From Nitrospirota bacterium (GTDB lineage Bacteria > Nitrospirota > Thermodesulfovibrionia > Thermodesulfovibrionales > SM23-35), in the NCBI GenBank assembly GCA_013388435.1, contig JACAFE010000030.1, positions 65,974 to 129,973 of the forward strand: a stretch of 64,000 nucleotides of DNA. The letters run 5' to 3'. The notes beneath the pieces were generated by a model. It was not told the origin of the DNA. It ran no database searches and saw only the letters and a program-made list of their open reading frames with translations. Both the position numbers and the translations under genes were made by a program. Shown here in pieces: positions 10,537 through 61,129 of this stretch (positions are counted from its first letter, which is position 1; each line of letters opens with the position of its first letter).

Positions 10537-10555
10537 TAACAAAAAGAGGTTATCA

Positions 10556-11287: not shown

Positions 11288-11304
11288 CAATACTTGCAGG
11301 TATT

Positions 11305-13374: not shown

Positions 13375-13494
13375 CTTTTATTTTGGAAACTTGTTGTTAT
13401 ATAATAAAAAAAAATAAATAAATCTATTTTCCACCTTAATACAGAAAATGCTTAACTTTTAATAAATATTTTTCCTTTAGAAAGGAGACTTCTA

Positions 13495-16589: not shown

Positions 16590-16659
16590 CTTCTTATAAT
16601 TGTCTTTTGAATTATTATTACAAAACCCGTTTTAAATAAGTTTTATTCAGAAAATAAAA

Positions 16660-18423: not shown

Positions 18424-18455
18424 CCTAAATAATAAAGAAATTGCTCAAATAACGT

Positions 18456-20537
18456 ATGGATATTAACTTAAAAATAAGGCTTGCATACGATCATCTTCAG
18501 GCTGGAAATATTGAACAATCAATAAAAATATGCGAAAGTATTATTGCAAACGAACCTTTAAATCCATACATCCTCGAGTTTCTTGGGATAATTTACCATA
18601 AAAAAGGTGATTTGCAGTCTGCAATCAAATATATTAAAAAAGCTGCCGAAATCAAGCCTGATAGCATTGAAACTTTGATTAATTTAGGAACTTTACTCGA
18701 GCAACATGGAAAATATCATGAAGCCCTGGAATGTTACAATAAAGTCTTACAAATAAACCCTGAATCGATTATTGCAAAAAATAAATCGGGGTTGATTTTT
18801 CTCAAAACCGGTCAATTCTCCGAAGCTGTTTCTGTTTTTGAAAAACTCTCAGAAATTCATCCAACATACGAAAATTTCTTTAATCTCGGAATATCTTATT
18901 ATAAAAATAATGACATTGATAATTCTCTTGCGAGTTTCAGAAAAGTTATCAAATTAAAACCAGATTTTTTAGATGCATATATTAATATCGAATCTATTCT
19001 GAGAGAAAAAGGATTGCCCGGTGAAGCAGAATACTATCATAATCTGGCTACTAAAATAAAAGATTCACTTAATACACTTAATACATTATACAATTCAAAA
19101 TGCGATGTTTATAGAGATTTAAGTGATAAATGGATAAAATGCATGTCTTCATTTCCGATAATTTATTCAGATGAAGACGAAATATTAAAAGTTAGGGAAA
19201 ATTACATAAATTTACTACAGGATTTATCCAATACAATTCTCAACTCCAGTACAGATGAGATAAAGATACTTTATGATTATATAGGGAAATACAAACCTTT
19301 TTATCTTCCATATCAGGGATTGAATGATAAGGAATTACAGAAAATATACGGAAATGCCGTACATAAAATTGTTTTATCAAGATATCCATTTCTGGAAAAT
19401 AACAGTTTCTATGGTTTTAATATTAAAAAAGATAAAATTCGTATAGGAATTGTGAGCGGCTTTTTTTATTATCATTCTGTCTGGAAAATACCTATTAAAG
19501 GCTGGATAGAAAATCTTGATAAAACCAAATTCACTTTATATGGATATCATACTAATTTAAAAAAAGATAATGAAACTAATTATGCAAGAAAATGTTTTAA
19601 TCAATTTGTAGAAGATATACTTGATTTTGAATTATTGTTTAAAAAAATTATTGATGACTGTATTGATATACTAATTTATCCTGAAATTGGAATGGATTCG
19701 TTATCATTAAAACTTGCTGCTGTTAGACTTGCTCCTGTGCAATGTGCATCATGGGGACATCCTGAAACATCTGGACTTCCAACCATAGATTATTATCTAT
19801 CAGGTGAATTGATAGAACCTCCTGATGCTGATAATCATTATTCTGAAACACTTATCCGCTTGCCAAATCTTTCTGTATTCTATAATCCTCCAGAATTTCA
19901 AAAAATTAATATGACTCGTGAATCATTTGGATTACGAAAAAATTCCATTATTTATCACTGCTGCCAGGCTCTTTATAAATTTCTTCCACAATATGATAAT
20001 ATTTTCCCTCAGATAGCCCGAGAAGTAAGAGATTGTCAATTTGTTTTTTCCTCTTTTCCTTTTATTCCAGATGCATTAGAAAAATTCCGTTTACGTATTT
20101 ATAAAGCTTTTCAAAAATACAAACTTAATGCCGAGAAATTTGTGGTATTTTTACCTCAACTTAATCCATCTCAGTATCATGCTCTTAATCACCTTGCGGA
20201 TATATTTCTCGATTGCATTGGATGGTCAGGTTGCAATTCTGTTCTTGAAGCTTTATCGTGTAATCTTCCAGTTATTACAATGCCCGGGAATCTAATGCGA
20301 AGCCGTGAAGGAACAGCAATTTTAAAATTAATTGACTTAAAAACAACTATAGCAAATTCTATTGAAGAATATATTAATCTCGCTATTAAATTAGGGAATG
20401 ACTCTGACCTGAGGGGAAAAATATCAGATGAAATTGCTAATAAATTTAACATTATTTGTAATGATAAATCTTGTATAAAAGCTCTTGAAGAGTTTTTTAT
20501 TGAATCTGCCAAACATATTGGTAGAAAATCTTTATAA
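18456..20537 (+). CDS. TPR-repeat protein fused to a GT41 (OGT / SPINDLY-type) glycosyltransferase domain
   Basis: 693 aa. After the TPRs: RIGIVSGFFYYHSVWK..., PEIGMDSLSLKLAAVRLAPVQCASWGHPETSGLPTIDYYLSGELIEPPDADNHYSETLIRLPN. This is the pattern I know from SPINDLY/OGT-family C-terminal domains. Confidence 0.7.
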   Translation: MDINLKIRLAYDHLQAGNIEQSIKICESIIANEPLNPYILEFLGIIYHKKGDLQSAIKYIKKAAEIKPDSIETLINLGTLLEQHGKYHEALECYNKVLQINPESIIAKNKSGLIFLKTGQFSEAVSVFEKLSEIHPTYENFFNLGISYYKNNDIDNSLASFRKVIKLKPDFLDAYINIESILREKGLPGEAEYYHNLATKIKDSLNTLNTLYNSKCDVYRDLSDKWIKCMSSFPIIYSDEDEILKVRENYINLLQDLSNTILNSSTDEIKILYDYIGKYKPFYLPYQGLNDKELQKIYGNAVHKIVLSRYPFLENNSFYGFNIKKDKIRIGIVSGFFYYHSVWKIPIKGWIENLDKTKFTLYGYHTNLKKDNETNYARKCFNQFVEDILDFELLFKKIIDDCIDILIYPEIGMDSLSLKLAAVRLAPVQCASWGHPETSGLPTIDYYLSGELIEPPDADNHYSETLIRLPNLSVFYNPPEFQKINMTRESFGLRKNSIIYHCCQALYKFLPQYDNIFPQIAREVRDCQFVFSSFPFIPDALEKFRLRIYKAFQKYKLNAEKFVVFLPQLNPSQYHALNHLADIFLDCIGWSGCNSVLEALSCNLPVITMPGNLMRSREGTAILKLIDLKTTIANSIEEYINLAIKLGNDSDLRGKISDEIANKFNIICNDKSCIKALEEFFIESAKHIGRKSL

Positions 20538-20539
20538 TC

Positions 20540-22084
20540 ATGAACATCTTAGATATCATTAATCAAATATACAATTTTATAAATACTGGTGAATTAATAA
20601 AGGCTGAAAAAGCTTGTCTATCAATGTTAGAAGAATACCCGGATAATCCTGAAATTATGGGCATACTTGGTTTAGTTTATTTTCAGCTTGGGAATGATAA
20701 CCTTGCACAATATTTTTTATCAAAATCATTAATAATTAAACCTGATAATGCCTTCCTGCTACACAATTTGGGAATGACTTTTCTAAAAAAAGGCGATATT
20801 GATAATGCAATTATCTCTTTTCAAAAAGCTTTGCAACTTAACCAGAATCTTGCTTATAGCTGTCACGCTCTCGGCTTATCCTATGACATAAAAGGAGAGT
20901 ATAGTGAAGCTCTAAAGTGGTATGAAAAAGCAATTAAAATTGATTCAAATATAGCGGATGCCCACAATAATATTGGTATTATACTCCAAAAAATGGGTAA
21001 ATATCCTGAAGCAATTTCCAGCTTTAAAAAAGCCCTCGAAATAAACCCTAAATATGCTGAAGTTTACAGCAATATGGGCCTTGCATATAGAGAATATGGT
21101 TTAATTGATAATTCCATAGAATACTATCGAAAAAGTCTTGAGATTAATCCTGAATTAATAGATGTGCACGTTAATTTAGCTCTTTCACTTCTTTTAAATG
21201 GAGATTACCTTACGGGCTGGGAAGAATATGAATGGAGAAAAAAACAACTCCCCAAAATATTTTCTAAACCATTCTGGGAATCTTATGATGATGATGTTTC
21301 TGGCAAAAAAATTCTTATTTACACTGAACAGGGTTTTGGTGATGCTATACAATTTATACGTTATATACCTTTTGTATATGAGCTTGGTGCAAAAATTATT
21401 TTAATTTGTCCAAAGGAATTAAAATCTTTATTTCAAAATATTCAAGGTATATATAATATTTTAACATTTGGCGAAAAAATTCCTGATTTTGATTTGCACT
21501 GTCCCATCCTCTCCCTGCCTTATATTTTTAAAACTACTATTGAAAATATCCCATCCAATATTCCTTATTTATTCCCGGATAAAACAATAATTAATAAATG
21601 GGCAGAAAAGATTCATAGTGATAATAACAATAAACTGAAAATAGGTATAGCATGGTCTGGCAGAAATCATGTACATAATATAAATTTATTTGCACCTTTA
21701 TCTGATATAAATGAAGTAACATTTTTCAGTCTGCAGAAAGGTGAGGCAGCTTCACAGGCTTTAAACCCACCAAACGGCATGAAAATAATTGATTATTCTG
21801 ACCAGATAACCGATTTTTTAGATACTGCCGGAATAATAATGAATCTCGATCTTGTTATCTCAATTGATACTTCTGTTGCTCATTTAGCCGGTGCACTTGG
21901 TAAAAATGTCTGGACATTACTTACTTACGTTCCGGACTGGCGCTGGTTATTAAACAGAAAAGACAGTCCATGGTACCCGACAATGCGTCTTTTCCGTCAA
22001 AAATCTATTGGTAACTGGAATTCTGTTTTTTCCAAAGTTCTGAATGAATTAAATATAATTATCCGAAAAAATTCTTTTGAATAA
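20540..22084 (+). CDS. TPR-repeat protein fused to a GT9-like domain, paralog 3
   Basis: 514 aa. WEEYEWRKK, TEQGFGDAIQFIRY, SIDTSVAHLAGALGKNVW...PDWRWLLNRKDSPWYPTMRLFRQ. It starts 2 nt after the previous stop. Confidence 0.75.
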   Translation: MNILDIINQIYNFINTGELIKAEKACLSMLEEYPDNPEIMGILGLVYFQLGNDNLAQYFLSKSLIIKPDNAFLLHNLGMTFLKKGDIDNAIISFQKALQLNQNLAYSCHALGLSYDIKGEYSEALKWYEKAIKIDSNIADAHNNIGIILQKMGKYPEAISSFKKALEINPKYAEVYSNMGLAYREYGLIDNSIEYYRKSLEINPELIDVHVNLALSLLLNGDYLTGWEEYEWRKKQLPKIFSKPFWESYDDDVSGKKILIYTEQGFGDAIQFIRYIPFVYELGAKIILICPKELKSLFQNIQGIYNILTFGEKIPDFDLHCPILSLPYIFKTTIENIPSNIPYLFPDKTIINKWAEKIHSDNNNKLKIGIAWSGRNHVHNINLFAPLSDINEVTFFSLQKGEAASQALNPPNGMKIIDYSDQITDFLDTAGIIMNLDLVISIDTSVAHLAGALGKNVWTLLTYVPDWRWLLNRKDSPWYPTMRLFRQKSIGNWNSVFSKVLNELNIIIRKNSFE

Positions 22085-45620: not shown

Positions 45621-46673
45621 ATGAAAAAAAGAAAGAAAACTAAAATAATCAATGTCGGTGGTGTAAAAATTGGTGGGAACAATCCAATAGCTGTTCAGTC
45701 CATGACAAAGACAGATACTGCTGATGTTAAATCAACTATAAGACAAATACATTCACTTGAAAAATCTGGATGTGAAATTATCAGAGTTGCAGTGCCTGAC
45801 ATGAAAGCTGCCGAAGCTCTGGGAAGTATCAAGAAGAGAATTAATATTCCATTAATTGCAGATATTCATTTTGACTGGAGACTTGCACTCGAGGCTGTTA
45901 AACAGGGAGTTGATGGCCTCAGAATTAATCCAGGGAACATTGGAGCAAAATGGAAGATTAAAGAAGTGGTATCTGCTGCAAAGGACAACGGACTTCCTAT
46001 CCGGGTTGGAGTAAATGCAGGTTCTCTCGAAAAAGATATATTAAATAAATATAAACACCCTGTGCCTGAAGCTCTTGTGGAAAGCGCAGGCAGAAATATA
46101 GATATACTTGAAAACATAGGATTCAAATCTATCAAAGTATCCTTAAAAGCATCAGATGTTTCAACAACAGTCGATGCATACAGATTATTTTCAAAGAAAT
46201 ACAGGTATCCTTTACATATTGGGATATCAGAAGCAGGACCGCCTTCACAGGGAATAATAAAAAGTTCTGTGGGTCTTGGCATATTGCTCGATGAAGGTAT
46301 TGGAGATACAATAAGAGTTTCTTTGACCTCAGAACCCGAGGAAGAAGTCAGGGTAGCCTATACAATACTTGGCTCATTGGGATTAAGACAGAGAGGAATT
46401 AATATCATTTCCTGCCCAACATGCGGAAGAACAAAAATAAATCTTAAAGAACTTGTAAAAAAAGTTGAACAACATATAAAAAATATTAACAAGCCAATCA
46501 CAGTTGCTGTAATGGGTTGTGTAGTTAATGGTCCCGGAGAAGCAAGGGAAGCAGATATAGGGATCGCCGGTGGAAAAGGCAGAGGCATTATATTCAGAAA
46601 AGGTGAAATAATTAAAAGCGTAAAAGAAGAAGAACTCCTCGATTGTCTTATCGAAGAATTGTGTAAAATTTAG
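45621..46673 (+). CDS. ispG: 4-hydroxy-3-methylbut-2-en-1-yl diphosphate synthase (IspG/GcpE)
   Basis: RINPGNIG, and Fe-S ligand regions ISCPTCGR and MGCVVNGPGE. The start is probably ATG 45621 (MKKRKKTKIINVGG), just after the mltG stop. The tracked start is 45594. Confidence 0.93.
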   Translation: MKKRKKTKIINVGGVKIGGNNPIAVQSMTKTDTADVKSTIRQIHSLEKSGCEIIRVAVPDMKAAEALGSIKKRINIPLIADIHFDWRLALEAVKQGVDGLRINPGNIGAKWKIKEVVSAAKDNGLPIRVGVNAGSLEKDILNKYKHPVPEALVESAGRNIDILENIGFKSIKVSLKASDVSTTVDAYRLFSKKYRYPLHIGISEAGPPSQGIIKSSVGLGILLDEGIGDTIRVSLTSEPEEEVRVAYTILGSLGLRQRGINIISCPTCGRTKINLKELVKKVEQHIKNINKPITVAVMGCVVNGPGEAREADIGIAGGKGRGIIFRKGEIIKSVKEEELLDCLIEELCKI

Positions 46674-48287
46674 TCTTCTGCTTTTTCAAGTTCTTTAAGA
46701 AAAGCATCGTTACACATTAAATCAAGCACAACCTTTGACACACTTTTAATAACATCAGGCAGAAGTTCTCCTTTTTCCATCTTTGCAAGATCATTGTAAA
46801 TCACGAGAGAATTTAGAAAAATTGCTGACTGCCAAGATTTTTTAATAAACTCCTGTTTTTTCTTTGTCAGATGTTGCCTGTTTAAAAAATCGTGAAAAAC
46901 ATCGGCATCCATATTTATGAATATATCAACACCTTTACTGTCGCCGCTCGGGACAACTTTTGCGATATCTTCACCACACCAGGAAGAACCATCATCTTTT
47001 TTAATCTCAGCCCATGTTCTGCAACCTTCTTTTTTTTCTTTGTAAACAAGAACCGGTTGCGGAAGTTGATACTTTTTGATTTTTGCCAAAGAAGGCAAAT
47101 AAGGAAGCTTTATTTTACTGCCTGAATCTTTGGGCTCAACATACTTAATTCTAAATTCAACCACCAGTGGCTCAAAGTTGTGTCTCGTCAGCATAGCAAT
47201 AACATCTTTAATATCGCCAACCTTTGCTTTTCTGGAAGGAAAAAGTTTTGCGGTTATTCTGCCATTCCATATATGATAGGATTTCATCAGATCCGGATAT
47301 ATAATGAATGAGCCCTTTTCGCTCTCCCTGCTGAAATAATCATTAGGGGCATCGGTCTCAAATGTAATTCTTGCATATGAATTTATAGCAATTTGTTTAA
47401 TTTGTTGTCCTCTGACTTTCAAATAGGTTGGCATCCATTTGCCTGCATATTCCTTAGCAACTAAATCCCCAATATCAGAATCATCCTTTATATTTCCATC
47501 AGTTCCGAGATAACCAAGAATAGAACGATTCTTTTTAATTAACTTTGAAATAATTCCCTCTAAAAATCTGGTGTCTTCAGGATTCCTGGATATTTGTTCT
47601 TCCCTTCTTTTTTTATTGAGTTGTCTCAAGCCTTCATGTCTTCCTAATTCTTCGGCAAGCACAGCTTCAATTTCTTTTGATACCTCATTTTCACGCATTC
47701 TGTCTCTGGAAGGCATAAAAGTCTTTTCTCTTAAATTTGTTTCAACATCAGTGCAATCAATATGCACCAAAAGGGAATCCGCAAGATAATGAAGATTAGC
47801 CTTTGTCTTTAAAAATGACCTGCCTATAGTCGCATGTGTCTGACCATTAATAGTAAAGAAAATAGCATCATTAGGAGTGGAAAACTCTTCTCTGCCAGTG
47901 TCCTCTTTGAAAACAGAGACCTCGATAGTTCTTTTGCCAAATTTGCCTAACTCGGCTATTATAGGAAAAATCTCCACTCTTTATCCCAAAAAATACTTCA
48001 ACAGCTTCTTTCATTGTTCTTGGTGCATTTTTTGAATCAAGATTTCTTATTTTACATTCTTTCAAAAGAAGAGCATCTATAGAATTGATTGGTTTTTCAG
48101 CCAATGCAGCGATAGAATTTTTTGCCTGGTTATTTATTGTATTAAAATTGCCTTCATATCCGCCGTAAGGTCTCCAGTTAGATAAATCTATAAGGAATGG
48201 CTCAGAATCAATAATATCTTTTACTTCATATTCTGACTTTGCAGATATTAATTTAAATAACAATTCTTTTGAATATTCTTCATCCAT
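46670..48287 (-). pseudogene. Split gene: N-terminal piece with a GHKL N-box-like motif (PINSIDA) plus a large C-terminal piece. The frames rejoin across a homopolymer.
   Basis: ORFs 47871-48287 and 46670-47977 overlap in different frames. Removing one base from the A5 run at 47966-47970 (+ strand) gives a continuous ...EAVEVFFGIKSGDFPIIAELGKFGKRTIEV... reading of about 538 aa. The N-box-like ALAEKPINSIDALL is not followed by recognisable G1/G2 ATP-binding boxes. Confidence 0.45.
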
Positions 48288-48435: not shown

Positions 48436-51400
48436 ATGACTTATAGAACAAATAAAAAAATACCCATCCTCCAAAATCAAATAATGCTTTCTATAGTTCT
48501 CCAGGGACGAAATGATGATTACATGGGGAATTTTGTATGGCGTCTTTCCACAAATATAAATAAACAGGCTAAAGATATTTTTAGTCTTGGCTATGAGAAT
48601 CAAGCTGAAATTATATTGACCGATTGGGGGAGTAAAGTGCCTCTTAAAAATGTATTAATGCTTAATAATGAAGCAAAGTCTCTTCTTCGGATAATAGAGG
48701 TTTTACCTGAAATAGCGAATAAATACAATCTTGATTCTCCTTATTCCTGTGTACATGCAATTAACACAGGAATAAGAAGATCTCTGGGGGAATATATTCT
48801 TTTCTGCGATGGAGACACTTATATTCCTACTGATTCAATGGAAAAGATTTTTAATCTTTTGAATAAAGGAAATTTAAATGGAACTCCTCTTGATAAACTT
48901 CTACTACTTGCATCACGTTATCACATACCTAAAACTTTTCAACAAAAAGAACCTGAAATCGAAGAGATAGATGATTATATCGAAAAAAATAAAAATATTC
49001 TTGCTCATGACAAAATTAATTTAGATAATTTCATGGGTACTGCCACAGCTTACTTAATGTCAAGGAATTTGTGGTTTGAATGCAGAGGCTTTGATGAAAA
49101 TCTCATTTATTGGGGTTGGTTTGATATAGATATTTTTTACCGCATAATTACTAAATATCCTGTTTTTGATTTTGAAGATTTTAAAATTCCATTTTTTCAT
49201 CTTGAACATTATAGTGATTCAAAAAACCGTTCACTTGAAAAAGAGAATCCGAGAAAAGCAAATCCAATGATTTATCCTTCATCATTTTTTAGTAATTCTG
49301 AGAAATGGGGGTTATTTTCTGAGAAATTGTCTGAAGCTTATTTATTTCCGATTATTTTTATACACAAAGGTGATAGTGATTATCTTACATACACCCTTCG
49401 CTGTGCAAAATTGTTTAATCCACAGGCAGAAATAATTTTGCTCGGTGATGAAACAAACGAACATTTCAAATCTCATGGCATTAAACACTATTATTATTCT
49501 GAATATGAAGGTGAAGAATCACATTTATTTGATTCTATATTTAAATATATTGCAGGCAAAGATCATCCTGGCAAACCATGGTGGGTGCATTTTGTTTTTA
49601 AACGCTGGTTTCACATTTATTATTTCACTAAAAAGCACAATATCAGCAGATTCTGGACTTTTGATTCAGACACAATGATTCTAACAGATTTAAGCAAGCA
49701 GGCTTTTAAATTCATTAAATTCGATTGTACCGAGCAATGTAATGGTTCATGCATGAATGGCTTAATAGGAAATTCAGTTATAGTTAAAGGGTATATTGAT
49801 CAAATAATTAATTTATTTCAGGATGAAGAATTTCTATTAAAGCAACAAAAAGAATTTGAGATAAAGACAAAATATGCTTTTACTGAGATGAGAGCATATG
49901 AAATATTTAGACAAAAAGAGGGTATTCAAACAATCAGGCTTAACTCAATAATCAATGATGAAACCTTTGATGATTGTATCTGTCAACAGCATGAAATGGA
50001 AATAGAAGGAGGGGTTAAGAAACTTTATTTCATAAATAATGGAATTTACCTCAAACACATTCCAACACAGAAATTAATTAAAGCTAATAGCCTTAATATG
50101 AGCTGGGTGCCTGTTTCATTTATAAAACAGGTTTATGATATTGTAAGCGAGAAGAAACAAATCCCCTCACAACAATCTTCAGAAAAAATATTTACCCAAA
50201 AATATAATGATTTACCGATACATTTTTTTACAATAGTACTTAATGGAGAACCATTCATCAGGCATCATATAGAAGTATTCAAACAACTGCCTTTTAAATG
50301 GCACTGGCATATTATTGAAGGGGTAGCGGATTTAAAATATGACACAGCATGGAGTTTGAAATACGGTGCAAGAATTACTGATGAAATTCATAAAAATGGT
50401 TTAAGCAATGATGGAACAACAGAATATCTTGATACTCTTATAAGAGAATATTCTGAAAATATAACTATTTACCGTAAAGAAGGCGGTAATTTCTGGGATG
50501 GGAAACTCGAGATGGTGAATGCTCCACTGAAAAACATTAACGAAGAATGTTTACTCTGGCAAATTGATGCTGATGAATTATGGACTGTAGAACAGATATG
50601 CACTGCCCGCACATTATTTATAAATAATCCGGAAAAAACAGCTGCTTATTACTACTGTCATTATTTTGTTGGTGAAAAACTTGTGATTGCTTCACGAAAT
50701 ACTTATGGCAATCATACTGATTATGAATGGTTACGAACATGGCGTTATATTCCAGGCGATTGCTGGATGGCGCATGAACCTCCAAAATTATATAGAAAAA
50801 TTCATAATGAACAATGGATTGATATAGCCTCAATCAATATATTTAAACATAATGAAACAGAGGAACATGGACTGGTTTTCCAGCATTATTCATATGCTAT
50901 AGAAGAGCAGTTATTTTTCAAAGAGAGATATTTCGGTTATTCAGGAGCAGTAAATAAATGGAAACTTCTTCAGTTGCAGACTCACTTTCCAACATTATTA
51001 AGACATTTTTTTAACTGGGTTGAAGACAACGCTCTTGTAGATACAGTTGAAGCATTAAATATAAAACCACTGGCATTAAAAGAAGTTGACGGAAAATGGC
51101 ATTTCAGACAGCATGAACTGACTGAACAAAAAACTGCTTCTGACAAAACAAGGTTGCAAATCCAGAAAACAGAAAAAAAACGATTTAAATCCGGACAAAA
51201 CATCCTCTGGATACGTACAGATGCAATTGGCGATGCTGTCTTATCAGCCTCAATGTTGCCTTTTATTAGGGAGAAGTATCCCGAAGCAAACATAACAGTT
51301 GTTTGCCAGAAGCATCTTGCAGAAATTTACGAGCCTTCTCCTTTTATTGATAGAACAATAGTTTTTGATAAAAAGCTTCTTTTTGATGATAAAAATTATC

Positions 51401-54400
51401 TTAAAGCTATACTCAGAGAGATTCAGGATATTAATGCTGATATCGCCTTTAATTCGGTTTATTCTCCTGAGCCTGTAACAGATATTCTTACTATCGGAAG
51501 TGTAGCAAAAGAAAAGATAGGACTTGAGGGTGATTTGTCAAACATTCCGGCTGATTTTAGGGAAAAAAGCATAAAACAATACACAAAACTTATTAAAAGT
51601 GAAGGAATATTTAAAAATGAACTTGAAAGGCACCGGGATTTTCTTAAAGGTATTGATATTAATTCAACAGATCTAAAACCGGTTATATGGTTAACAGAAG
51701 AAGATGAAAAATATGCTGACAATTTTTTTAAAATACGCAATATCGTTCCTGAAAAAACAATTATTCTTTCCAGTTGTGCTCAGTTTATCATAAAGTACTA
51801 TCAACATTATGGAATTGCTTTATCAAAGATATGCAAAGAAAACGATTTCACTGTAGTCGCAGTAGGTGCTGATCATGAAAGAGAGAGAAATCAATACAAT
51901 CTTAATATGATAGGAGCACGCACAATTAATCTCTGCGGCCAGACTACTATCGGACAGACTGCTGCTCTGGTCAAGAGAAGCCGATTAAGTGTCGGTGCGG
52001 ATTCAGCTATTAATCATATCGCCTGTGCTGTTGGTACTCCTAATGTTGTTGTTCTTGGAGGAGGACATTTTGGCAGATTCTTTCCTTATTCTCCTCTAAC
52101 TACTGTAATTTGTCGTCCAATGCAGTGCTACCAATGCAACTGGTCTTGCAAGTTTCCAAGACCTTATTGCATCCAGAATATTTCTTCAATGAGTTTATCT
52201 GAAGCGATAAGGGAAACATTAAATGGAATTTCAGACAGACCAAGAATATTTTTTGAAACTGAAGCAATAAAAGATATATTTCAAGGAAAGGATTATTGGA
52301 AATGGTTTGGAGAGTATATTAAATTCATGTCAGCAGATTTAATACCTATTGAAAAAAGTTCTGAATCAATGGAAAAAACAACTGCTGCTTCTGGAAAAAT
52401 TGAAACAGGAATCAGTTCAAAAATAAATGAAAATGCAATCCTAAATGGAGGATTTATTGCAACAACATTTAAAGCCGGATTATGCAATAGAATATTTGAA
52501 TGGACAATTATGCGTGAAATAAGCGAAAAATACTGCATGACCATTCTTGTTGATTGGGAAGAAGTAAAGGATGGTTCAATAATATTGCCTGATACAAAAT
52601 ATTTTGATCTGTCAACTGCATCTTCAGACATTGCAAATACATTTATTCCTATAAGAACTGACCTGCCTTATATAAACTCACTTGATGATCTCAAAATTGA
52701 AAAAAACAAAAATTATATTCTTGTATGCGATTGGAATTATAAGAGAAGTCTTACAGATGAAAAGAAACGAATAAATGAAATTCAAATCAGTAAAAAATAT
52801 TCTGAAAAAATTAATGATTTTTTAAAAAAATATGGAGAACAAATTATTATTGGTATTCATGTCCGTAAAGGTGATTATATTCCTTCAGACAAATTTCTCT
52901 TGTCAGACGATGGGAAATTATATCGACTACCTGATTGGTGGTATATCCATATTTCAAAACAGATTTTAAATCAAATGCCAGATGCAAAGTTCTTTCTTGC
53001 TACAGATGCCACTGAAGAAGAGAAAGAAATATTCAAAAAGAATCTTCCAATAATATCAATTTCTGCCGACAAAGATACCCCTCGTCTTGATATACTTGAA
53101 CTTTTTACTCTTTCAAGACTCCCTGCAATTATATGTTCTATCTCAACTTTCAGCATATTTGCCAGAGATTATGGCAGAGAAAAAGTTTCAATCTGGCCTG
53201 AAAAATCTGTTCAGGATATTAGCAATGAGATCGAAAAGCTAAAGAGCATATCTCCGCTTCTTCCTTTTGAAACAAGTTGCACAATATCTTTACCCAGATT
53301 TTCTGTAGTTACACCTTCATATAATCAGGGACAGTATATTGAGAAGACAATTCTTAGTGTTCTCGAGCAGGAGTATCCTGATTTCGAGCACATAATAATT
53401 GACGGAGGCTCTACTGACAATACACTGGATATTCTTAAAAAATATCCTCATTTGAAATGGTTATCAGAAAAAGATGAAGGACAATCGGATGCATTAAATA
53501 AAGGATTCCGAATGGCTGACGGCGACATAATAGCGTGGATTAATTCAGATGATTGGTATGAGCCCGAAGCCTTCGTTTCAGTTGCAGAATGGTTCAGCAA
53601 AAACCCGGATAAAAACATTGTCATGGGTGACTGCAATCTAATAGACCAGAATGGGAAAATATTCTATACTGCTGAAAATTATGAGCGCGGGTTTGAAGAG
53701 ATGAGCCGTTTCTGGATAACAGGCTCTATCCCAACACAGCCGGCAATTTTCTTCAGAAGAAAATTACTTGACGAATATGGCTATCTTGATAAATCACTCA
53801 AATATGCTATGGATTATGACCTCTGGATTAGATTCTCTAAGAATAACCGTTTTTATCATATTGAAAAAATTGTTGCTAATTACCTTTTTCATGAGAATTC
53901 AAAAGGCGGAATCCGTCAGGATTGGAACAAATTCCTTCCAGATTGTAAGAAAGTATTCAAAAAACACGTGCTTTCTCAAAGACCACCAGAAGTGTCTGTT
54001 GTAATAGCCTGTTATAATCAGGCTGTTTTTTTACCAGAAGCAGTTGAAAGCGTTATAAACCAGATATATCAAGATTTCGAAATAATTATCGTAAACGATG
54101 GAAGCACTGATGATACCCAACAAACTGCTGAAATGCTTGCTAAAAAATATCCTGATAATATCATAAAAATAATAAACCAAAAAAATATGGGTGTTTCCTC
54201 AGCAAGAAATGCTGGAATTAAAGCTTCGATGGGGAAATATATTCTGCCTCTGGATGCCGATGATATGCTTCATCCTGATATGCTATTAAGAACAACCGGC
54301 CTCCTGGATACACACCCTGAAATAGGAATAGCATATACCGATGTTCAAAAATTCGGAAAACTGGAAGAATACTGGCAGTCATGGGACTGGGATCTAAACA

Positions 54401-56037
54401 GACTTTACTTTCAGAATATATTGCCATATTGCTCATTGTATCGTAGAGAAGTATGGGAAGCTGCTGGTGGATATAAAGAAAGAATTATTTTTGGTTATGA
54501 AGACTGGGATTTCTGGATAAGTTGTGCAGAAAAAGGCATATATGGCAAACGCATTCCAGAAAATCTATTGATATATAGAACAAAAGAAACAAGCAGAGAT
54601 ACAGAAGCGATTAAAAGTCACGATAAATTATTTGCCCATATTGTTTTAAACCATCCCTCATTATATAAATCAGATACAATTGCATGGGCAAAAGCCTTAA
54701 CAGGCTTCCCGGAAGATTCAAGCCTATTAAAATATGAAAAAGCTACTTCAACTACTATAGGGGAATATATTAAGCCAATGAATATTCTTCTCTGCGTTCA
54801 TAGTTTTCCTACACAAAGAATGGCTGGCACTGAACTCTACGTTTATCATCTGGCAAGGGAACTGATAAATAAAGGACATAAAATCAAGGTGCTTTATCCT
54901 GTATATGAAAATAATTCAGAATACATAAATATAAAAGAAGATAGTTTTGAAGATATTACTCTTGCGCAGATGTATTTGAAGCCTTGTTCAAATATAATCG
55001 AGCATTTCAAAAATGAAAAGGCAAGTAATGCTTTCAATAATTATATATCTTCAGACCCGCCTGATATAGTTCACTTTCATCATTTTCTGGGAATTTCTGT
55101 TTCCCCGCTTAAAGTATGTTATGAACTAAATATCCCTTCAGTCGTTACTTTGCATGATGAATGGATTTTATGCGAACAGCTTCATTATCTTTTACCTGAT
55201 GGCACTTTCTGTAGCGGTCCGGAAACAATTCAGAAATGTATTGAATGCTTTATTGTCCGTCATCCTGAATTTAGATTAACTGATATTAAAGAAAATATAT
55301 TCGAGGCTTTTGCTTTAAGACGCTTGTATTTTATTGACGCTATGAAATGGATTAATACTTTAATTGTCCCTTCGTTATTCTTGAAAAATGAGTTAATAAA
55401 ACATGAATTCCTGCATCCAAATATATTGCATATGCCTCTGGGACTTCATACTTTTACTCCTGTTACTCATAAGCCATCATCTAATTCCATAAGATTGACT
55501 TATCTCGGAAATATAAATTTTACTAAGGGATTTGATGTTCTGATCAAAGCATTTAATTTAATTAATTCAGATAAAGCTGAATTGAATGTTTATGGGAAGG
55601 TGCAGGATGAAATATTCTTCCATGAGGTAATGTCCTTGAATATGAAACCTTTTCATATAAAGATTTATGGACAATATAATCCTTCTGAATTACCTGAAAT
55701 TCTATCGAAAACAGATTTAGCTGTTATTCCTTCACGTTCCGAAAACTACCCTTTTGTTGTGAGAGAATGCCTCCATGCCGGAGTTCCTGTAATTGCATCA
55801 AATGTAGGTGGTATTCCAGAAATTATTAAAAACGGTGAAAATGGCTTATTATTCGAATCAGGTAATTTTCATGACCTTGCGGCAAAACTTACTCTTGTAA
55901 TCATGAATCCAAAGATGCTGATGAATTTCAGAAAAAATATTAAACCCGTAAAAAGCATTGCAGAAGATGTTATAGAATTGGAAAAATTATATAGAGAAAT
56001 TCTTGAGAATAAAAAATTGAAAAATAAGAAAACTTAA
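48436..56037 (+). CDS. Giant multi-module glycosyltransferase (2,533 aa, about 8 GT-type modules)
   Basis: One uninterrupted frame. Approximate module positions: GT2-like 48480-49250 (FCDGDTY); unknown 49340-50150; GT-A-like 50220-51000; GT9-like 51200-52250 (ILWIRTDAIGDAV); fucosyltransferase-like 52440-53230 (IGIHVRKGDY, FLATD); GT2 53298-53990 (VVTPSYNQ...IIIDGGSTD); GT2 53990-54700 (VVIACYNQ...IVNDGSTDD); GT4/GT-B 54778-56037 (PSRSENYPFVVRECLHAGVPVIASNVGGIPE). Confidence 0.85.
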   Translation: MTYRTNKKIPILQNQIMLSIVLQGRNDDYMGNFVWRLSTNINKQAKDIFSLGYENQAEIILTDWGSKVPLKNVLMLNNEAKSLLRIIEVLPEIANKYNLDSPYSCVHAINTGIRRSLGEYILFCDGDTYIPTDSMEKIFNLLNKGNLNGTPLDKLLLLASRYHIPKTFQQKEPEIEEIDDYIEKNKNILAHDKINLDNFMGTATAYLMSRNLWFECRGFDENLIYWGWFDIDIFYRIITKYPVFDFEDFKIPFFHLEHYSDSKNRSLEKENPRKANPMIYPSSFFSNSEKWGLFSEKLSEAYLFPIIFIHKGDSDYLTYTLRCAKLFNPQAEIILLGDETNEHFKSHGIKHYYYSEYEGEESHLFDSIFKYIAGKDHPGKPWWVHFVFKRWFHIYYFTKKHNISRFWTFDSDTMILTDLSKQAFKFIKFDCTEQCNGSCMNGLIGNSVIVKGYIDQIINLFQDEEFLLKQQKEFEIKTKYAFTEMRAYEIFRQKEGIQTIRLNSIINDETFDDCICQQHEMEIEGGVKKLYFINNGIYLKHIPTQKLIKANSLNMSWVPVSFIKQVYDIVSEKKQIPSQQSSEKIFTQKYNDLPIHFFTIVLNGEPFIRHHIEVFKQLPFKWHWHIIEGVADLKYDTAWSLKYGARITDEIHKNGLSNDGTTEYLDTLIREYSENITIYRKEGGNFWDGKLEMVNAPLKNINEECLLWQIDADELWTVEQICTARTLFINNPEKTAAYYYCHYFVGEKLVIASRNTYGNHTDYEWLRTWRYIPGDCWMAHEPPKLYRKIHNEQWIDIASINIFKHNETEEHGLVFQHYSYAIEEQLFFKERYFGYSGAVNKWKLLQLQTHFPTLLRHFFNWVEDNALVDTVEALNIKPLALKEVDGKWHFRQHELTEQKTASDKTRLQIQKTEKKRFKSGQNILWIRTDAIGDAVLSASMLPFIREKYPEANITVVCQKHLAEIYEPSPFIDRTIVFDKKLLFDDKNYLKAILREIQDINADIAFNSVYSPEPVTDILTIGSVAKEKIGLEGDLSNIPADFREKSIKQYTKLIKSEGIFKNELERHRDFLKGIDINSTDLKPVIWLTEEDEKYADNFFKIRNIVPEKTIILSSCAQFIIKYYQHYGIALSKICKENDFTVVAVGADHERERNQYNLNMIGARTINLCGQTTIGQTAALVKRSRLSVGADSAINHIACAVGTPNVVVLGGGHFGRFFPYSPLTTVICRPMQCYQCNWSCKFPRPYCIQNISSMSLSEAIRETLNGISDRPRIFFETEAIKDIFQGKDYWKWFGEYIKFMSADLIPIEKSSESMEKTTAASGKIETGISSKINENAILNGGFIATTFKAGLCNRIFEWTIMREISEKYCMTILVDWEEVKDGSIILPDTKYFDLSTASSDIANTFIPIRTDLPYINSLDDLKIEKNKNYILVCDWNYKRSLTDEKKRINEIQISKKYSEKINDFLKKYGEQIIIGIHVRKGDYIPSDKFLLSDDGKLYRLPDWWYIHISKQILNQMPDAKFFLATDATEEEKEIFKKNLPIISISADKDTPRLDILELFTLSRLPAIICSISTFSIFARDYGREKVSIWPEKSVQDISNEIEKLKSISPLLPFETSCTISLPRFSVVTPSYNQGQYIEKTILSVLEQEYPDFEHIIIDGGSTDNTLDILKKYPHLKWLSEKDEGQSDALNKGFRMADGDIIAWINSDDWYEPEAFVSVAEWFSKNPDKNIVMGDCNLIDQNGKIFYTAENYERGFEEMSRFWITGSIPTQPAIFFRRKLLDEYGYLDKSLKYAMDYDLWIRFSKNNRFYHIEKIVANYLFHENSKGGIRQDWNKFLPDCKKVFKKHVLSQRPPEVSVVIACYNQAVFLPEAVESVINQIYQDFEIIIVNDGSTDDTQQTAEMLAKKYPDNIIKIINQKNMGVSSARNAGIKASMGKYILPLDADDMLHPDMLLRTTGLLDTHPEIGIAYTDVQKFGKLEEYWQSWDWDLNRLYFQNILPYCSLYRREVWEAAGGYKERIIFGYEDWDFWISCAEKGIYGKRIPENLLIYRTKETSRDTEAIKSHDKLFAHIVLNHPSLYKSDTIAWAKALTGFPEDSSLLKYEKATSTTIGEYIKPMNILLCVHSFPTQRMAGTELYVYHLARELINKGHKIKVLYPVYENNSEYINIKEDSFEDITLAQMYLKPCSNIIEHFKNEKASNAFNNYISSDPPDIVHFHHFLGISVSPLKVCYELNIPSVVTLHDEWILCEQLHYLLPDGTFCSGPETIQKCIECFIVRHPEFRLTDIKENIFEAFALRRLYFIDAMKWINTLIVPSLFLKNELIKHEFLHPNILHMPLGLHTFTPVTHKPSSNSIRLTYLGNINFTKGFDVLIKAFNLINSDKAELNVYGKVQDEIFFHEVMSLNMKPFHIKIYGQYNPSELPEILSKTDLAVIPSRSENYPFVVRECLHAGVPVIASNVGGIPEIIKNGENGLLFESGNFHDLAAKLTLVIMNPKMLMNFRKNIKPVKSIAEDVIELEKLYREILENKKLKNKKT

Positions 56038-56154
56038 AAAAATAGTTCATGGATTGGGATTTGAACTATCTAAGCAAGTCTTTAATATATAACCTACTTA
56101 ACCCAAAAAATGCATTTGAAATAATGCAGATGTTACGAAAAAATTTAATTTTAT

Positions 56155-56366
56155 ACAATCTCCTTAATCCCCCTTTGTCAAGGGGGATTAAGGAGATTGT
56201 TATTTGCCTTTGTTGTTTACGCTTTGCGCCGTTCGGTTTTAATAGAACGCAATAAACGCTACAACGCAATGAACGCAATGAACGCTATAAACGCTATTTG
56301 CCTTCAGCCTGAAGCCTTCAGCCTTTTTTATGAGTTATGAGCAATGTCTGCATTAGTTGGGTTAAT
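56155..56366 (+). repeat. Intergenic repeat element, copy B, with a 20-bp perfect hairpin and a short tandem array
   Basis: 20-bp perfect stem 56155-56174 / 56181-56200 with loop ttgtca. About six 8-9-nt units AACGC[AT]A[TC][AG] at 56247-56298. Palindromic ccttcagcctgaagg-like segment at 56301-56323. The terminal blocks match copy A. Confidence 0.75.
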
Positions 56367-58468: not shown

Positions 58469-58469
58469 T

Positions 58470-61020: not shown

Positions 61021-61129
61021 GTGGCGGTTTAAAAAAGATGTGATTGATAAATGGATAAGTGAGGAATCGTTAGAAAGGAGCGCAAAATTCTTTTCAATAC
61101 AACAGAAAGGAAAGAAAAAAATAAGATGA
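60902..61129 (+). CDS. Excisionase-family (MerR-like) helix-turn-helix DNA-binding protein
   Basis: MTVKQVAEYLQMDEHTIYKLARSGLIPSLKIAGQWRFKKDVIDKWI is the classic excisionase-type HTH. I prefer ATG 60902 because the tracked start 60845 lies inside the promoter. The stop overlaps the next start (ATGA). Confidence 0.8.
   Translation: MEEKEIMTVKQVAEYLQMDEHTIYKLARSGLIPSLKIAGQWRFKKDVIDKWISEESLERSAKFFSIQQKGKKKIR

What the first reader, a model, noticed from the sequence alone, without database searches (positions are those of the whole stretch)
48436..56037. One 2,533-codon ORF concatenating about eight glycosyltransferase-type modules
The frame is open for 7,602 nt. Reading the translation in order, I recognise:
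1. A GT2-like module with a DxD-type FCDGDTY motif.
2. An unassigned module of about 270 aa (PIIFIHKGDSDYL...).
3. A second GT-A-like module (IHFFTIVLNGEPF...WHWHIIEGVAD).
4. A GT9/heptosyltransferase-fold module (ILWIRTDAIGDAVLSASMLPFIREKYP).
5. A module with IGIHVRKGDY and FLATD, recalling the HxRRGDY motif of GT11-type alpha-1,2-fucosyltransferases.
6. and 7. Two textbook GT2 modules (VVTPSYNQ...DGGSTD; VVIACYNQ...NDGSTDD).
8. A GT-B/GT4 module at the C-terminus.

Bacterial glycan pathways normally encode these activities as separate genes. Two-domain fusions are common, but an eight-module string in one polypeptide is far beyond anything I can name.

I see no signal peptide or obvious TM segment, so it would act as a soluble or peripheral cytoplasmic glycan assembly line. 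It is flanked by a broken gene on the left and a MITE-like repeat on the right, which suggests accessory DNA.
Basis: partly seen in the sequence, partly recalled or inferred. Interest (0 to 1): 0.85.

Follow-up and report, generated by a model that had tools for sequence, protein, structure and literature searches.

The report
Eight-module giant glycosyltransferase gene
This is a real, intact 7.6-kb bacterial gene that fuses eight sugar-adding enzyme modules into one 295-kDa protein; it belongs to a widespread but unstudied family of giant enzymes that probably build complex sugar chains on flagellar or other surface-filament proteins.

Summary
The ORF at 48436-56037 (+) is real: 2,533 codons, about 295 kDa, no transmembrane segment.

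**It is not an assembly artefact.** Three diverged orthologues (82, 78 and 68% identity) from independent assemblies keep the same length and module order. dN/dS is 0.05-0.30 in every module.

**All eight segments are glycosyltransferase (GT) modules.**
- Five pass Pfam's curated cut-offs: GT2-like, GT9, GT2, GT2 and GT4.
- The "GT11-like" module belongs to the GT11/GT23/GT65/GT68 fucosyltransferase superfamily. An extended family profile hits FUT8 at 8.8e-9.
- The two unassigned modules model as tandem GT-A folds. They have no Pfam or NCBIfam family, and no sequence match in PDB.
- Signature motifs are conserved in all eight modules.

**It is not unique.** Its signature module M3 occurs in 347 species genomes. 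In the 80 loci examined it always lies inside a large protein (835-3,671 aa), with modules shuffled.

**Probable role.** Five of six related giants looked up lie directly upstream of flagellin, fliS or fliD genes. Cyanobacterial relatives sit beside TPR-GT41 (OGT-like) and pilin-like genes. In one orthologue the giant abuts orthologues of this window's TPR-GT cluster at 9-22 kb. I infer cytoplasmic, stepwise protein O-glycan assembly.

**Rival.** A lipid-linked, ABC-transporter-dependent polysaccharide polymerase remains possible.

**Verdict.** An extreme variant of a known kind; the acceptor and product are untested.

The parts
48436..56037 (+). Giant glycosyltransferase gene, 2,533 codons plus stop; product 294.8 kDa with no transmembrane segment
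   Evidence: identical to NWF98010.1; full-length orthologues in L001, L002 and L003
48475..49332 (+). M1 (aa 14-299): GT-A, GT2-like module; DxD-type motif FCDGDTY
   Evidence: Pfam PF10111 E=8e-15, above the curated cut-off; motif identical in 4/4 orthologues; recurs at 51-60% identity in other giants
49333..50187 (+). M2 (aa 300-584): GT-A-fold module of a family with no annotation; invariant FDSDT motif
   Evidence: No Pfam, NCBIfam or PDB sequence hit. The AF2 model of M2+M3 has pLDDT 79.4, and Foldseek top hits are tandem GT-A enzymes aligned over 480-700 columns. There are 462 homologues, mostly standalone proteins of about 320 aa. One of these lies inside a glycan operon with about 13 GT genes in Flavobacterium faecale.
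50188..51180 (+). M3 (aa 585-915): divergent GT2-like GT-A module and signature of the giant family; motifs HFFTIVLNG, WHWHIIEG, SNDGTT, IDADELW
   Evidence: AF2/Foldseek; hhalign against the GT2 modules M6/M7 gives probability 79%, E=1.6e-5 over the NDG...DxD region; present in 347 species genomes and always inside an 835-3,671 aa ORF in the 80 loci examined
51181..52335 (+). M4 (aa 916-1300): GT-B, GT9 (heptosyltransferase-family) module; motif GADSAINHIACAVGTP
   Evidence: Pfam PF01075 E=1.5e-20; TIGR02195 alignment spans aa 923-1260; an adjacent M3-M4 pair is conserved across non-cyanobacterial phyla
52336..53280 (+). M5 (aa 1301-1615): GT11/GT23/GT65/GT68-type fucosyltransferase-superfamily module; motifs GLCNRI, HVRKGDY, FLATD, SISTFS
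   Evidence: Pfam GT11 is weak in 4/4 orthologues (best E 1.6e-4, below cut-off) and FUT8_N_cat in 2/4. A 23-sequence family profile against PDB gives FUT8 8.8e-9, NodZ 2e-7 and POFUT2 1e-6. The Foldseek top 44 hits are all FUT8, POFUT1, POFUT2 or NodZ, although the model is weak at pLDDT 51.6. The His and Arg of the HVRKGDY motif (H1475, R1477) are invariant across the extended family.
53281..53970 (+). M6 (aa 1616-1845): GT2 module; motifs DGGSTD and NSDD
   Evidence: Pfam PF00535 E=2.7e-33; motifs identical in 4/4 orthologues; dN/dS 0.05
53971..54750 (+). M7 (aa 1846-2105): GT2 module; motifs NDGSTD and LDADD
   Evidence: Pfam PF00535 E=2.1e-35
54751..56034 (+). M8 (aa 2106-2533): GT-B, GT4 module; E-x7-E motif ENYPFVVRE
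   Evidence: Pfam PF13439 E=3e-14 plus PF00534 E=1.8e-30; motif conserved
46670..48287 (-). Left neighbour: pseudogene of a 768-aa protein of unknown function (internal deletion of about 225 aa plus a frame change). Not part of the system.
56098..56365 (.). Right flank: 17-nt inverted repeats enclosing a perfect 21-nt hairpin (56155-56200) and 9-nt tandem repeats (56245-56299). Possibly a small element or a terminator; copy number unknown.
11305..22084 (+). Probable partner cluster: TPR+GT9-like (11305-13374), GT2+GT9 (13495-15060), GT2_5+GT2 (15060-16589), TPR+GT9 (16660-18423), TPR+GT41 OGT-like (18456-20537), TPR+GT9-like (20540-22084). It follows a FliK-like gene (9002-10255) and a 243-aa membrane-anchored ORF (10556-11287).
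   Evidence: Pfam. Orthologues of the last two genes (67% and 69% identity) directly abut the giant in L002. The TPR-GT41 family neighbours M3 proteins in 50 of 82 loci. The TPR/GT9-like paralogues match genes lying between the giant and flagellin in L085 and L088. The GT41 domain matches SPINDLY, OGT and NGT in PDB.

Best explanation
The ORF is a genuine gene for a soluble cytoplasmic enzyme of about 295 kDa. It consists of eight catalytically intact glycosyltransferase modules joined by short variable linkers. Five are GT-A: M1, M2, M3, M6 and M7. Three are GT-B: M4 (GT9), M5 (fucosyltransferase-like) and M8 (GT4). It belongs to a widespread, uncharacterised family of giant GTs in which a small set of modules (M1, M2, M3, GT9, GT2, GT4, with or without TPR, methyltransferase, pyruvyltransferase or radical-SAM modules) is shuffled between lineages. 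Inferred mechanism: each module uses a nucleotide sugar to add one residue or linkage, so the polypeptide assembles a complex heteroglycan stepwise in the cytoplasm without a membrane step of its own. The most likely acceptor is a secreted filament protein, flagellin in flagellated lineages. It would be primed or recruited by the separately encoded TPR-GT41 (OGT-like) and TPR-GT9 enzymes of the 9-22 kb cluster, as in flagellin glycosylation islands. Shown here: gene integrity, eight GT modules, conserved motifs, purifying selection, family distribution and gene neighbourhoods. Inferred: activity of each module, one linkage per module, the protein acceptor and the partnership with the TPR-GT genes.
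For: Integrity: the orthologues have 2,529, 2,533 and 2,536 aa at 82, 78 and 68% identity, with only 22 gapped columns. dN/dS is 0.05-0.30 in each of the eight modules. The gene stays intact although flanking genes are decayed. Modules. Catalytic and nucleotide-binding motifs are conserved 4/4 in all modules. There is no transmembrane segment. Family: modules recur in different orders in 1,600-3,145-aa proteins. M3 is found in 347 species genomes and always in large ORFs. Comparators of 3,671 and 3,614 aa carry at least 7-8 GT modules. Acceptor: five of six related giants looked up (P0006, P0009, P0011, P0014, P0015) lie on the same strand directly upstream of flagellar filament genes (fliS and fliD, with flagellin itself in three of the five loci). 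In three of these loci TPR-methyltransferase, TPR-GT or GT2 genes lie in between. L027 also has flagellin nearby. TPR-GT41 genes neighbour M3 proteins in 50 of 82 loci, and pilin-like genes do so in 39. In L002 the giant abuts orthologues of the window's TPR-GT41 and TPR-GT9-like genes. The window's cluster follows a FliK-like gene and resembles island genes of L085 and L088. Precedents: cytoplasmic flagellin O-glycosylation by the modular enzyme FlmG (PMC7591256), and cytoplasmic pilin glycosylation requiring a TPR-GT41 Ogt (PMC9306852).
Against: No flagellin, fliS, fliD or pilin gene lies in this 64-kb window. The giant is 26 kb from the TPR-GT cluster. The giant itself has no TPR or other recognisable protein-binding domain. 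Of the 80 genome loci only L027 shows flagellin within 10 kb. The GT41 association is dominated by one phylum, the non-flagellated cyanobacteria. The 'FliK-like' call rests on one C-terminal domain hit (E=1.4e-9). A standalone M2 homologue sits in an ABC-transporter-type polysaccharide operon, and characterised multi-GT enzymes make lipid-linked polymers. No donor, acceptor or product has been measured.
Confidence: 0.55

Rival explanations
1. The giant is a polymerase or assembly enzyme for a lipid-linked polysaccharide (O-antigen, capsule, EPS or S-layer glycan) in an ABC-transporter-dependent pathway. The eight modules would build a complex repeat unit, adaptor and cap on undecaprenyl-diphosphate at the inner face of the membrane, as WbdA, WbbB and WbbM do with 2-3 modules.
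For: Characterised multi-GT polypeptides are of this kind, with one module per linkage (PMC11231755). A standalone M2 homologue lies in a Flavobacterium faecale operon with an ABC-2 permease and ATPase, FkbM, DegT, PglD, eight GT2, a weak GT8, two GT4 and a GT10 gene. That operon is effectively the unfused version of this module set. Relatives carry FkbM methyltransferase or pyruvyltransferase modules, which are typical chain-modifying or capping activities. The window has an ABC-2 permease/ATPase pair at 4543-6050. GT9 is classically an LPS-core family.
Against: No ABC transporter, phosphoglycosyltransferase, flippase, ligase or oligosaccharyltransferase lies next to the giant or its orthologues. 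The window's ABC-2 pair is 42 kb away and its permease has no PDB relative. No coiled-coil or terminator domain or membrane anchor was seen. The recurrent neighbours of related giants are flagellin/FliS/FliD, TPR-GT41 and pilin-like genes.
Confidence: 0.3
2. Only a subset of the modules is catalytic; the rest are degenerate GT folds that serve as scaffolds or as acceptor- or carbohydrate-binding domains.
For: M2 and M3 have no family assignment and no characterised homologue. M5 scores below Pfam's GT11 cut-off. Inactive GT-like domains are known in other multidomain enzymes (general knowledge, not tested here).
Against: The DxD, NDG, HxRxGD, DSxxxH and E-x7-E motifs are conserved in 4/4 orthologues for every module and in the wider M2, M3 and M5 families. 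dN/dS is uniformly low.
Confidence: 0.1
3. The long ORF is an assembly chimera, or it hides frameshifts, and it really represents several ordinary single-domain genes.
For: The source is a metagenome-assembled genome. Neighbouring genes do show frameshifts and deletions.
Against: Independent assemblies (NCBI MAGs, Logan, JGI, ENA) give the same uninterrupted architecture at 68-100% identity, in genomes of 32-44% GC. Chance probability of the open frame is about 1e-85. Linkers are short and in frame.
Confidence: 0.02

Closest known systems
Multi-module O-antigen polymerases of ABC-transporter-dependent pathways (WbdA, WbbB, WbbM, WbbY; Klebsiella and E. coli)
   Same: Several GT modules in one soluble or peripheral polypeptide, with one module per linkage type. 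GT2 and GT4 modules are used. Methyltransferase modules are fused in some relatives.
   Different: Those enzymes carry 2-3 GT modules (PMC11231755); this one carries eight, from at least six different families. No wzm/wzt genes, coiled-coil ruler or terminator lie beside it. Sequence relatedness beyond shared Pfam families was not tested.
Flagellin glycosylation islands and cytoplasmic flagellin O-glycosyltransferases (for example FlmG of Caulobacter, TPR + GT)
   Same: Soluble cytoplasmic GTs. TPR-containing partner proteins are present. Related giants sit directly upstream of flagellin, fliS or fliD genes.
   Different: FlmG is a single-GT enzyme with its own flagellin-binding domain (PMC7591256). 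Here eight GT modules are fused, there is no TPR in the polypeptide, and no flagellin gene lies in the window.
Cyanobacterial Ogt (TPR-GT41), required for cytoplasmic PilA glycosylation
   Same: The same TPR-GT41 family is the commonest neighbour of M3-bearing large GTs (50 of 82 loci), together with pilin-like genes (39 loci). A TPR-GT41 gene lies in this window and abuts the giant in L002.
   Different: Ogt is the partner enzyme, not a homologue of the giant. Published work (PMC9306852) does not mention the adjacent FkbM-M3-GT4 protein. The link is by neighbourhood only.
Two-domain GT-A polymerases and bifunctional GTs (LARGE1, chondroitin polymerase K4CP, heparosan synthase PmHS2, LH3)
   Same: They are the best structural matches for the M2+M3 tandem (Foldseek E from 2e-10 to 1e-6, aligned over both domains).
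   Different: Sequence identity is only 9-12% and TM-scores are low because domain orientation differs. There is no sequence-level relationship.
Unfused counterpart: glycan operon of Flavobacterium faecale (CP020918.1, locus L084)
   Same: It contains an M2 homologue plus eight GT2, two GT4, a fucosyltransferase (GT10) and a methyltransferase, as separate same-strand genes.
   Different: The activities are on separate polypeptides, and they sit with an ABC-2 transporter and sugar-modifying enzymes that are absent next to the giant.

Membership tests
GT2 (Pfam PF00535) - modules M6 and M7 | Profile score above Pfam's curated cut-off, plus D(G)STD nucleotide-binding and DxD motifs | tested here: met
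   115.7 and 122.6 bits against a cut-off of 23.3; motifs DGGSTD/NSDD and NDGSTD/LDADD conserved
GT2-like (Pfam PF10111) - module M1 | Profile score above the curated cut-off, plus a DxD motif | tested here: met
   55.4 bits against a cut-off of 27.3; DGD conserved
GT9 heptosyltransferase family (PF01075) - module M4 | Profile score above the curated cut-off; GT-B with a D(S/T)G..H motif | tested here: met
   74.1 bits against a cut-off of 22. The equivalog models for heptosyltransferase I and II score far below their cut-offs, so M4 is a family member only, and the donor is unknown.
GT4 (PF13439 + PF00534) - module M8 | Both half-domain profiles above cut-off, plus an E-x7-E motif | tested here: met
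   53.8 and 106.1 bits; ENYPFVVRE conserved
GT11 alpha-1,2-fucosyltransferase (PF01531) - module M5 | Profile score above the curated cut-off (23.9 bits) | tested here: not met
   17.1-17.3 bits; best E among the four orthologues is 1.6e-4. M5 is not filed as GT11.
Fucosyltransferase-type GT-B superfamily (GT11/GT23/GT37/GT65/GT68) - module M5 | Homology to solved members, including the HxRRGD-type arginine motif and the C-terminal Rossmann domain | tested here: met
   Family profile against PDB: FUT8 8.8e-9, NodZ 2e-7, POFUT2 1e-6, aligned across HVRRGD. Foldseek top 44 hits all belong to this superfamily, from a weak model. The motif's His and Arg are invariant.
GT-A fold glycosyltransferase - module M3 | Rossmann-like GT-A fold with a DxD motif, and a detectable relationship to GT2 | tested here: met
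   AF2 pLDDT is mostly 80-94 across M3. Foldseek hits include SpsA, TarP, SunS and tandem GT-A enzymes. hhalign against GT2 modules gives E=1.6e-5, probability 79%. There is no Pfam or NCBIfam family.
GT-A fold glycosyltransferase - module M2 | GT-A fold with a DxD motif | tested here: inconclusive
   The fold is supported only through the two-domain model. Hits to two-domain GT-A enzymes span 480-700 columns, and GT8-type hits appear (glycogenin, GlyE). The DSD motif is invariant and the operon context is a glycan pathway. However, there is no profile-level link to GT2, and M2 was not searched alone.
Multi-module polymerase of an ABC-transporter-dependent glycan pathway (WbdA/WbbB type) | Encoded in a locus with wzm/wzt and chain-terminating or ruler components | tested here: not met
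   No such genes lie next to the giant or its orthologues. An ABC-2 pair lies 42 kb away.
Flagellin glycosylation island enzyme | Gene located beside flagellin, fliS or fliD | tested here: not met
   Not met for this gene: there is no flagellin in the window. It is met for five of six related giants. A FliK-like gene lies beside the partner cluster.
Flagellin glycosylation island enzyme | Flagellin carries a glycan that depends on the enzyme | not testable with these tools
   This needs glycoproteomics or genetics in a host organism.

The most novel reading that the evidence does not exclude
The polypeptide is a true glycan assembly line. Eight active sites are held on one chain and pass a growing, defined hetero-oligosaccharide from module to module, with the module set, and perhaps the module order, specifying the glycan. 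This would be a carbohydrate counterpart of NRPS/PKS logic, evolving by module shuffling across phyla, and it would include two GT-A families (M2, M3) that no curated library describes.
Probability: 0.15. Interest if true: 0.85.

Novelty: new variant of a known kind. Interest (0 to 1): 0.55.

Why it matters
Characterised multi-module glycosyltransferases carry two or three catalytic modules. This protein carries eight, drawn from at least six families, all apparently active and all under selection.

It is the GT-only extreme of a family of giants present in hundreds of genomes, from Nitrospirota to cyanobacteria, that nobody has studied.

If the neighbourhood inference holds, these enzymes make unusually elaborate O-glycans on flagellins or pilins in the cytoplasm.

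They also offer a natural, compact scaffold for one-protein synthesis of defined oligosaccharides.

Modules M2 and M3 are candidates for new GT families. M3 is 58-66% identical across phyla, which implies a very constrained reaction or frequent transfer.

Tried and rejected
- **M5 protein search.** A word-indexed search with M5 alone returned nothing, not even the protein itself. The exhaustive representative search replaced it.
- **Single-sequence and small-profile PDB searches.** Searches for M2, M3 and M5 gave only noise. Only the 23-sequence M5 profile worked.
- **AF2 model of M5.** Built from four sequences, it was poor (pLDDT 51.6). I use its Foldseek result only as corroboration.
- **hhalign of M2 against GT2 modules.** No signal.
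- **Names of M5 relatives.** None of the sources names them.
- **ABC ATPase cluster.** It is shared with 13 cyanobacterial loci. I dismissed it as generic, Mla-type ABC similarity with no bearing on function.
- **ABC-2 permease against PDB.** No hit.
- **Type IV pilin N-terminal motif.** None was found in the window or in non-cyanobacterial loci.
- **Metagenome scan for more orthologues.** It found one 4.2-kb fragment with no useful context.
- **Walking beyond the window's right edge.** Failed.
- **Compositional test for foreign origin.** Negative.
- **Literature searches for giant or multi-module GTs.** Nothing was found beyond 2-3-module enzymes.
- **Rfam and tRNA scans.** Nothing in the window.
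Full report
**Observation**

The ORF at 48436-56037 (+) is present exactly as described: ATG start, 2,533 codons. It is by far the longest ORF in the window; the next longest is 946 aa.

At the window's composition (33.5% GC) 7.4% of random codons are stops. An open frame of this length therefore has a chance probability of about 1e-85.

The product is 294.8 kDa, and its most hydrophobic 19-residue window scores 1.51, so it has no transmembrane helix. The identical protein is deposited as NWF98010.1, "MAG: glycosyltransferase [Nitrospirae bacterium]".

**Is it one real gene?**

The first homologue search returned three diverged full-length orthologues of 2,529, 2,533 and 2,536 aa, at 82, 78 and 68% identity. 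I fetched their DNA:
- L001 is an NCBI MAG.
- L002 and L003 are Logan assemblies of two different runs; L003 comes from a genome region of 44% GC.

The four proteins align with only 22 gapped columns, and conservation is even along the whole length.

Nei-Gojobori dN/dS against the two closer orthologues (L001, L002), computed module by module, is 0.05-0.30 in all eight modules. Synonymous sites are saturated against the 68% orthologue L003.

The 90%-identity cluster of the window's protein holds three further full-length copies from JGI and ENA contigs of 100-256 kb.

The modules are joined by short, poorly conserved, in-frame linkers of about 15-40 residues. A chimera or hidden frameshift is effectively excluded.

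The gene stays intact in a neighbourhood with decayed genes:
- The left neighbour has lost about 225 internal codons relative to L001.
- Cytochrome bd subunit I is split in two.
- A peroxiredoxin lacks its N-terminus.

**What are the eight segments?**

*Modules that pass curated Pfam cut-offs*

| Module | Family | Residues |
|---|---|---|
| M1 | GT2-like (PF10111) | 14-299 |
| M4 | GT9 (PF01075) | 916-1300 |
| M6 | GT2 (PF00535) | 1616-1845 |
| M7 | GT2 (PF00535) | 1846-2105 |
| M8 | GT4 (PF13439 + PF00534) | 2106-2533 |

*M5 (aa 1301-1615)*
- It scores only 17 bits on Pfam GT11, below the cut-off. However, all four orthologues hit GT11 weakly and two hit FUT8_N_cat.
- An exhaustive profile search of 1.84 billion representatives found 300 relatives (E ≤ 0.001). 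These include two other giants and many standalone proteins of 250-320 aa.
- A 23-sequence profile of this family hits solved structures: FUT8 at 8.8e-9, NodZ at 2e-7 and POFUT2 at 1e-6. The alignment runs through the HVRRGD motif.
- The His and Arg of the HVRKGDY motif (H1475, R1477 in the giant) and the two Ser of the S.S(T/S)FS motif are invariant.
- The AF2 model of M5 was weak (pLDDT 51.6). Even so, its top 44 Foldseek hits are exclusively FUT8, POFUT1, POFUT2 and NodZ.
- M5 is therefore a member of the fucosyltransferase-type GT-B superfamily, but not a demonstrated GT11.

*M2 (aa 300-584) and M3 (aa 585-915)*
- Neither has a Pfam or NCBIfam hit, or a sequence match in PDB.
- A joint AF2 model built from a 15-sequence alignment is good (pLDDT 79.4).
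- Its best Foldseek matches are two-domain GT-A enzymes aligned over both domains: LARGE1 (2.4e-10), LH3, chondroitin polymerase K4CP, heparosan synthase PmHS2 and CHSY3. Single GT-A enzymes follow: GlyE, glycogenin, SunS, SpsA and TarP.
- M3 also aligns profile-to-profile with the protein's own GT2 modules across the NDG...DxD region (hhalign E=1.6e-5). M2 does not, so its assignment rests on the fold match, an invariant DSD motif and context.
- M2 has 462 detectable homologues, mostly standalone "hypothetical" proteins of about 320 aa.
- In Flavobacterium faecale one of these sits in the middle of an operon with eight GT2, a weak GT8, two GT4 and a GT10 gene, together with FkbM, DegT, PglD and an ABC-2 transporter.

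*Motifs.* Every module's signature motif is conserved in all four orthologues: DxD in the five GT-A modules, DSxxxH in GT9, HxRxGD in M5 and E-x7-E in GT4.

It is firm for seven modules and at fold level for M2.

**It is one of a family of giants**

BLAST and phmmer show that M1, M2, M3 and M4 recur at 42-60% identity, in different orders and combinations, in proteins of 1,600-3,145 aa. Those proteins also carry TPR and methyltransferase domains.

A scan of one genome per species found M3 in 347 species. In the 80 best loci M3 is always inside a large ORF of 835-3,671 aa. The phyla represented are:
- Nitrospirota
- Planctomycetota, including Brocadia
- Desulfobacterota
- Ignavibacteriota
- Verrucomicrobiota
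- many filamentous cyanobacteria, including Trichodesmium erythraeum IMS101

Outside cyanobacteria an adjacent M3-GT9 pair is the conserved core. Cyanobacteria have a protein of about 1,270 aa with the architecture FkbM-M3-GT4.

Two comparators carry as many or more GT modules:
- A 3,671-aa Ignavibacteriaceae protein: pyruvyltransferase + M3 + GT9 + TPR + four GT2 + two further GT-B-type modules (a GT4 and a Glyco_trans_1_2 hit).
- A 3,614-aa Desulfobacterales protein: radical SAM + GT2 + GT4 + M3 + GT9 + TPR + further GT2.

The exact M1-M8 string, with no TPR or methyltransferase, is confined to the four Nitrospirota orthologues. In the papers searched I found nothing on enzymes with more than three GT modules. 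The best-studied multi-module enzymes have two or three (PMC11231755).

**What does it act on?**

The giant's immediate neighbours in the window are housekeeping or decayed genes. Three lines connect it to protein glycosylation.

1. *Flagellar filament genes.* Five of six related giants whose contigs I could read lie on the same strand directly upstream of flagellar filament genes: fliS and fliD in all five, with flagellin itself in three (L085, L086, L088). In those three loci TPR-methyltransferase, TPR-GT4 or GT2 genes lie in between. This is the layout of a flagellin glycosylation island. L027 also has flagellin nearby.

2. *TPR-GT41 neighbours.* Clustering the flanking ORFs of 82 loci shows that the commonest neighbour of M3 proteins is a TPR-GT41 (OGT-like) protein, found in 50 loci. 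Pilin-like genes occur in 39 cyanobacterial loci. A cyanobacterial TPR-GT41 Ogt is required for cytoplasmic PilA glycosylation (PMC9306852).

3. *A matching cluster in this window.*
   - At 11305-22084 it encodes TPR+GT9-like, GT2+GT9, GT2+GT2, TPR+GT9, TPR+GT41 and TPR+GT9-like proteins. These follow a FliK-like gene and a 243-aa membrane-anchored ORF.
   - In orthologue locus L002, the orthologues of the last two genes (67 and 69% identity) directly abut the giant.
   - In L003 another GT2+GT4+TPR protein precedes the giant.
   - The TPR/GT9-like paralogues match genes that lie between the giant and flagellin in L085 and L088.
   - The GT41 domain matches SPINDLY, OGT and NGT structures.

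Cytoplasmic, lipid-independent, stepwise O-glycosylation of flagellin by soluble GTs is an established mechanism; FlmG is an example (PMC7591256). It fits a soluble enzyme with no neighbouring flippase or transporter.

**Why the acceptor is uncertain**
- No flagellin or pilin gene lies in this window.
- The giant has no TPR of its own.
- The GT41 association is dominated by one phylum.
- The F. faecale operon and all characterised multi-GT enzymes point to ABC-transporter-dependent, lipid-linked polysaccharides.

I put the protein-glycan reading at roughly one in two and the lipid-linked polymerase reading at about 0.3.

**Other points in the finding**

The "accessory DNA" idea is not supported:
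- GC and GC3 equal those of groEL and ispG.
- The locus is syntenic with L001 from rhomboid through ispG.
- In the more distant L002 and L003 the gene sits elsewhere.

The right-flank element is real as a hairpin plus tandem repeats bounded by 17-nt inverted repeats. It is single-copy in the window.

**Verdict**

The finding is an extreme variant (eight fused, apparently active GT modules) of a known principle, the multi-module GT. It belongs to a large, uncharacterised and phylogenetically wide family, and two of its modules lack any curated family.

It is already in databases, generically annotated. Its acceptor, product and mechanism are untested.

Noticed in passing
window 9002-22084 (+): A second glycosylation cluster follows a FliK-like gene and a 243-aa membrane-anchored ORF with a Ser/Thr/Pro-rich tail. 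It encodes three paralogous TPR+GT9-like proteins, GT2+GT9, GT2+GT2 and a TPR+GT41 OGT-like protein. The 135-nt repeat family at 13075, 18124 and 21779 is the shared 3' end of the three paralogues.
   Followed up: partly
window 58470-59822 (-): Cytochrome bd oxidase subunit I is split into two ORFs (259 aa and 181 aa, covering profile positions 1-254 and 266-418). This is a probable frameshift or stop pseudogene, or an assembly error. Subunit II (57440-58486) is intact.
   Followed up: no
window 56643-57041 (-): A peroxiredoxin (AhpC/TSA plus 1-Cys C-terminal domain) lacks about the first 65 profile positions, so it is an N-terminally truncated remnant. Several decayed genes cluster around the intact giant gene.
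   Followed up: no
window 46670-48287 (-); L001 7480-9786: The broken left neighbour derives from a 768-aa protein with no Pfam family that is intact in L001. Its function is unknown.
   Followed up: partly
window 61126-63832 (+): An EcoRV-type restriction-modification locus: N6_N4 methylase, EcoRV-family endonuclease (E=1e-109) and a second, D12-class adenine methyltransferase.
   Followed up: no
window 29280-32120 (+): A 946-aa protein with BACON and InlB-B-repeat-like domains and three internal repeats of about 220 nt (30372-31110). It is a possible surface protein.
   Followed up: no
window 50188-51180 and loci L005-L083: Module M3 is 58-66% identical between Nitrospirota, cyanobacteria, Planctomycetota, Desulfobacterota, Ignavibacteriota and Verrucomicrobiota. 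That is far more than the GT9 module beside it (35-48%). This suggests an unusually constrained reaction or repeated horizontal transfer.
   Followed up: partly
loci L013-L083 (filamentous cyanobacteria): A conserved cyanobacterial locus contains an unknown 137-aa protein (48 loci), the FkbM-M3-GT4 protein of about 1,270 aa, one or two TPR-GT41 genes and a Pilin_GH/N_methyl pseudopilin (39 loci). Heterocystous taxa often add an FHA-kinase and a PP2C phosphatase. It may be a pilin or hormogonium glycosylation locus.
   Followed up: partly
L004 / L001 (DYFC01000066.1): The record holding the 82% orthologue is titled 'Nitrospira japonica isolate Tomsk_35_41', but the locus has 35.6% GC. From memory, cultured Nitrospira are much more GC-rich, so the species label looks doubtful.
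   Followed up: no
window 4543-6050 (-): An ABC-2 permease plus ABC ATPase pair (251 aa each) lies 3 kb from the FliK/TPR-GT cluster. It could be a glycan exporter. The permease has no PDB relative, and no family-level test was possible.
   Followed up: partly
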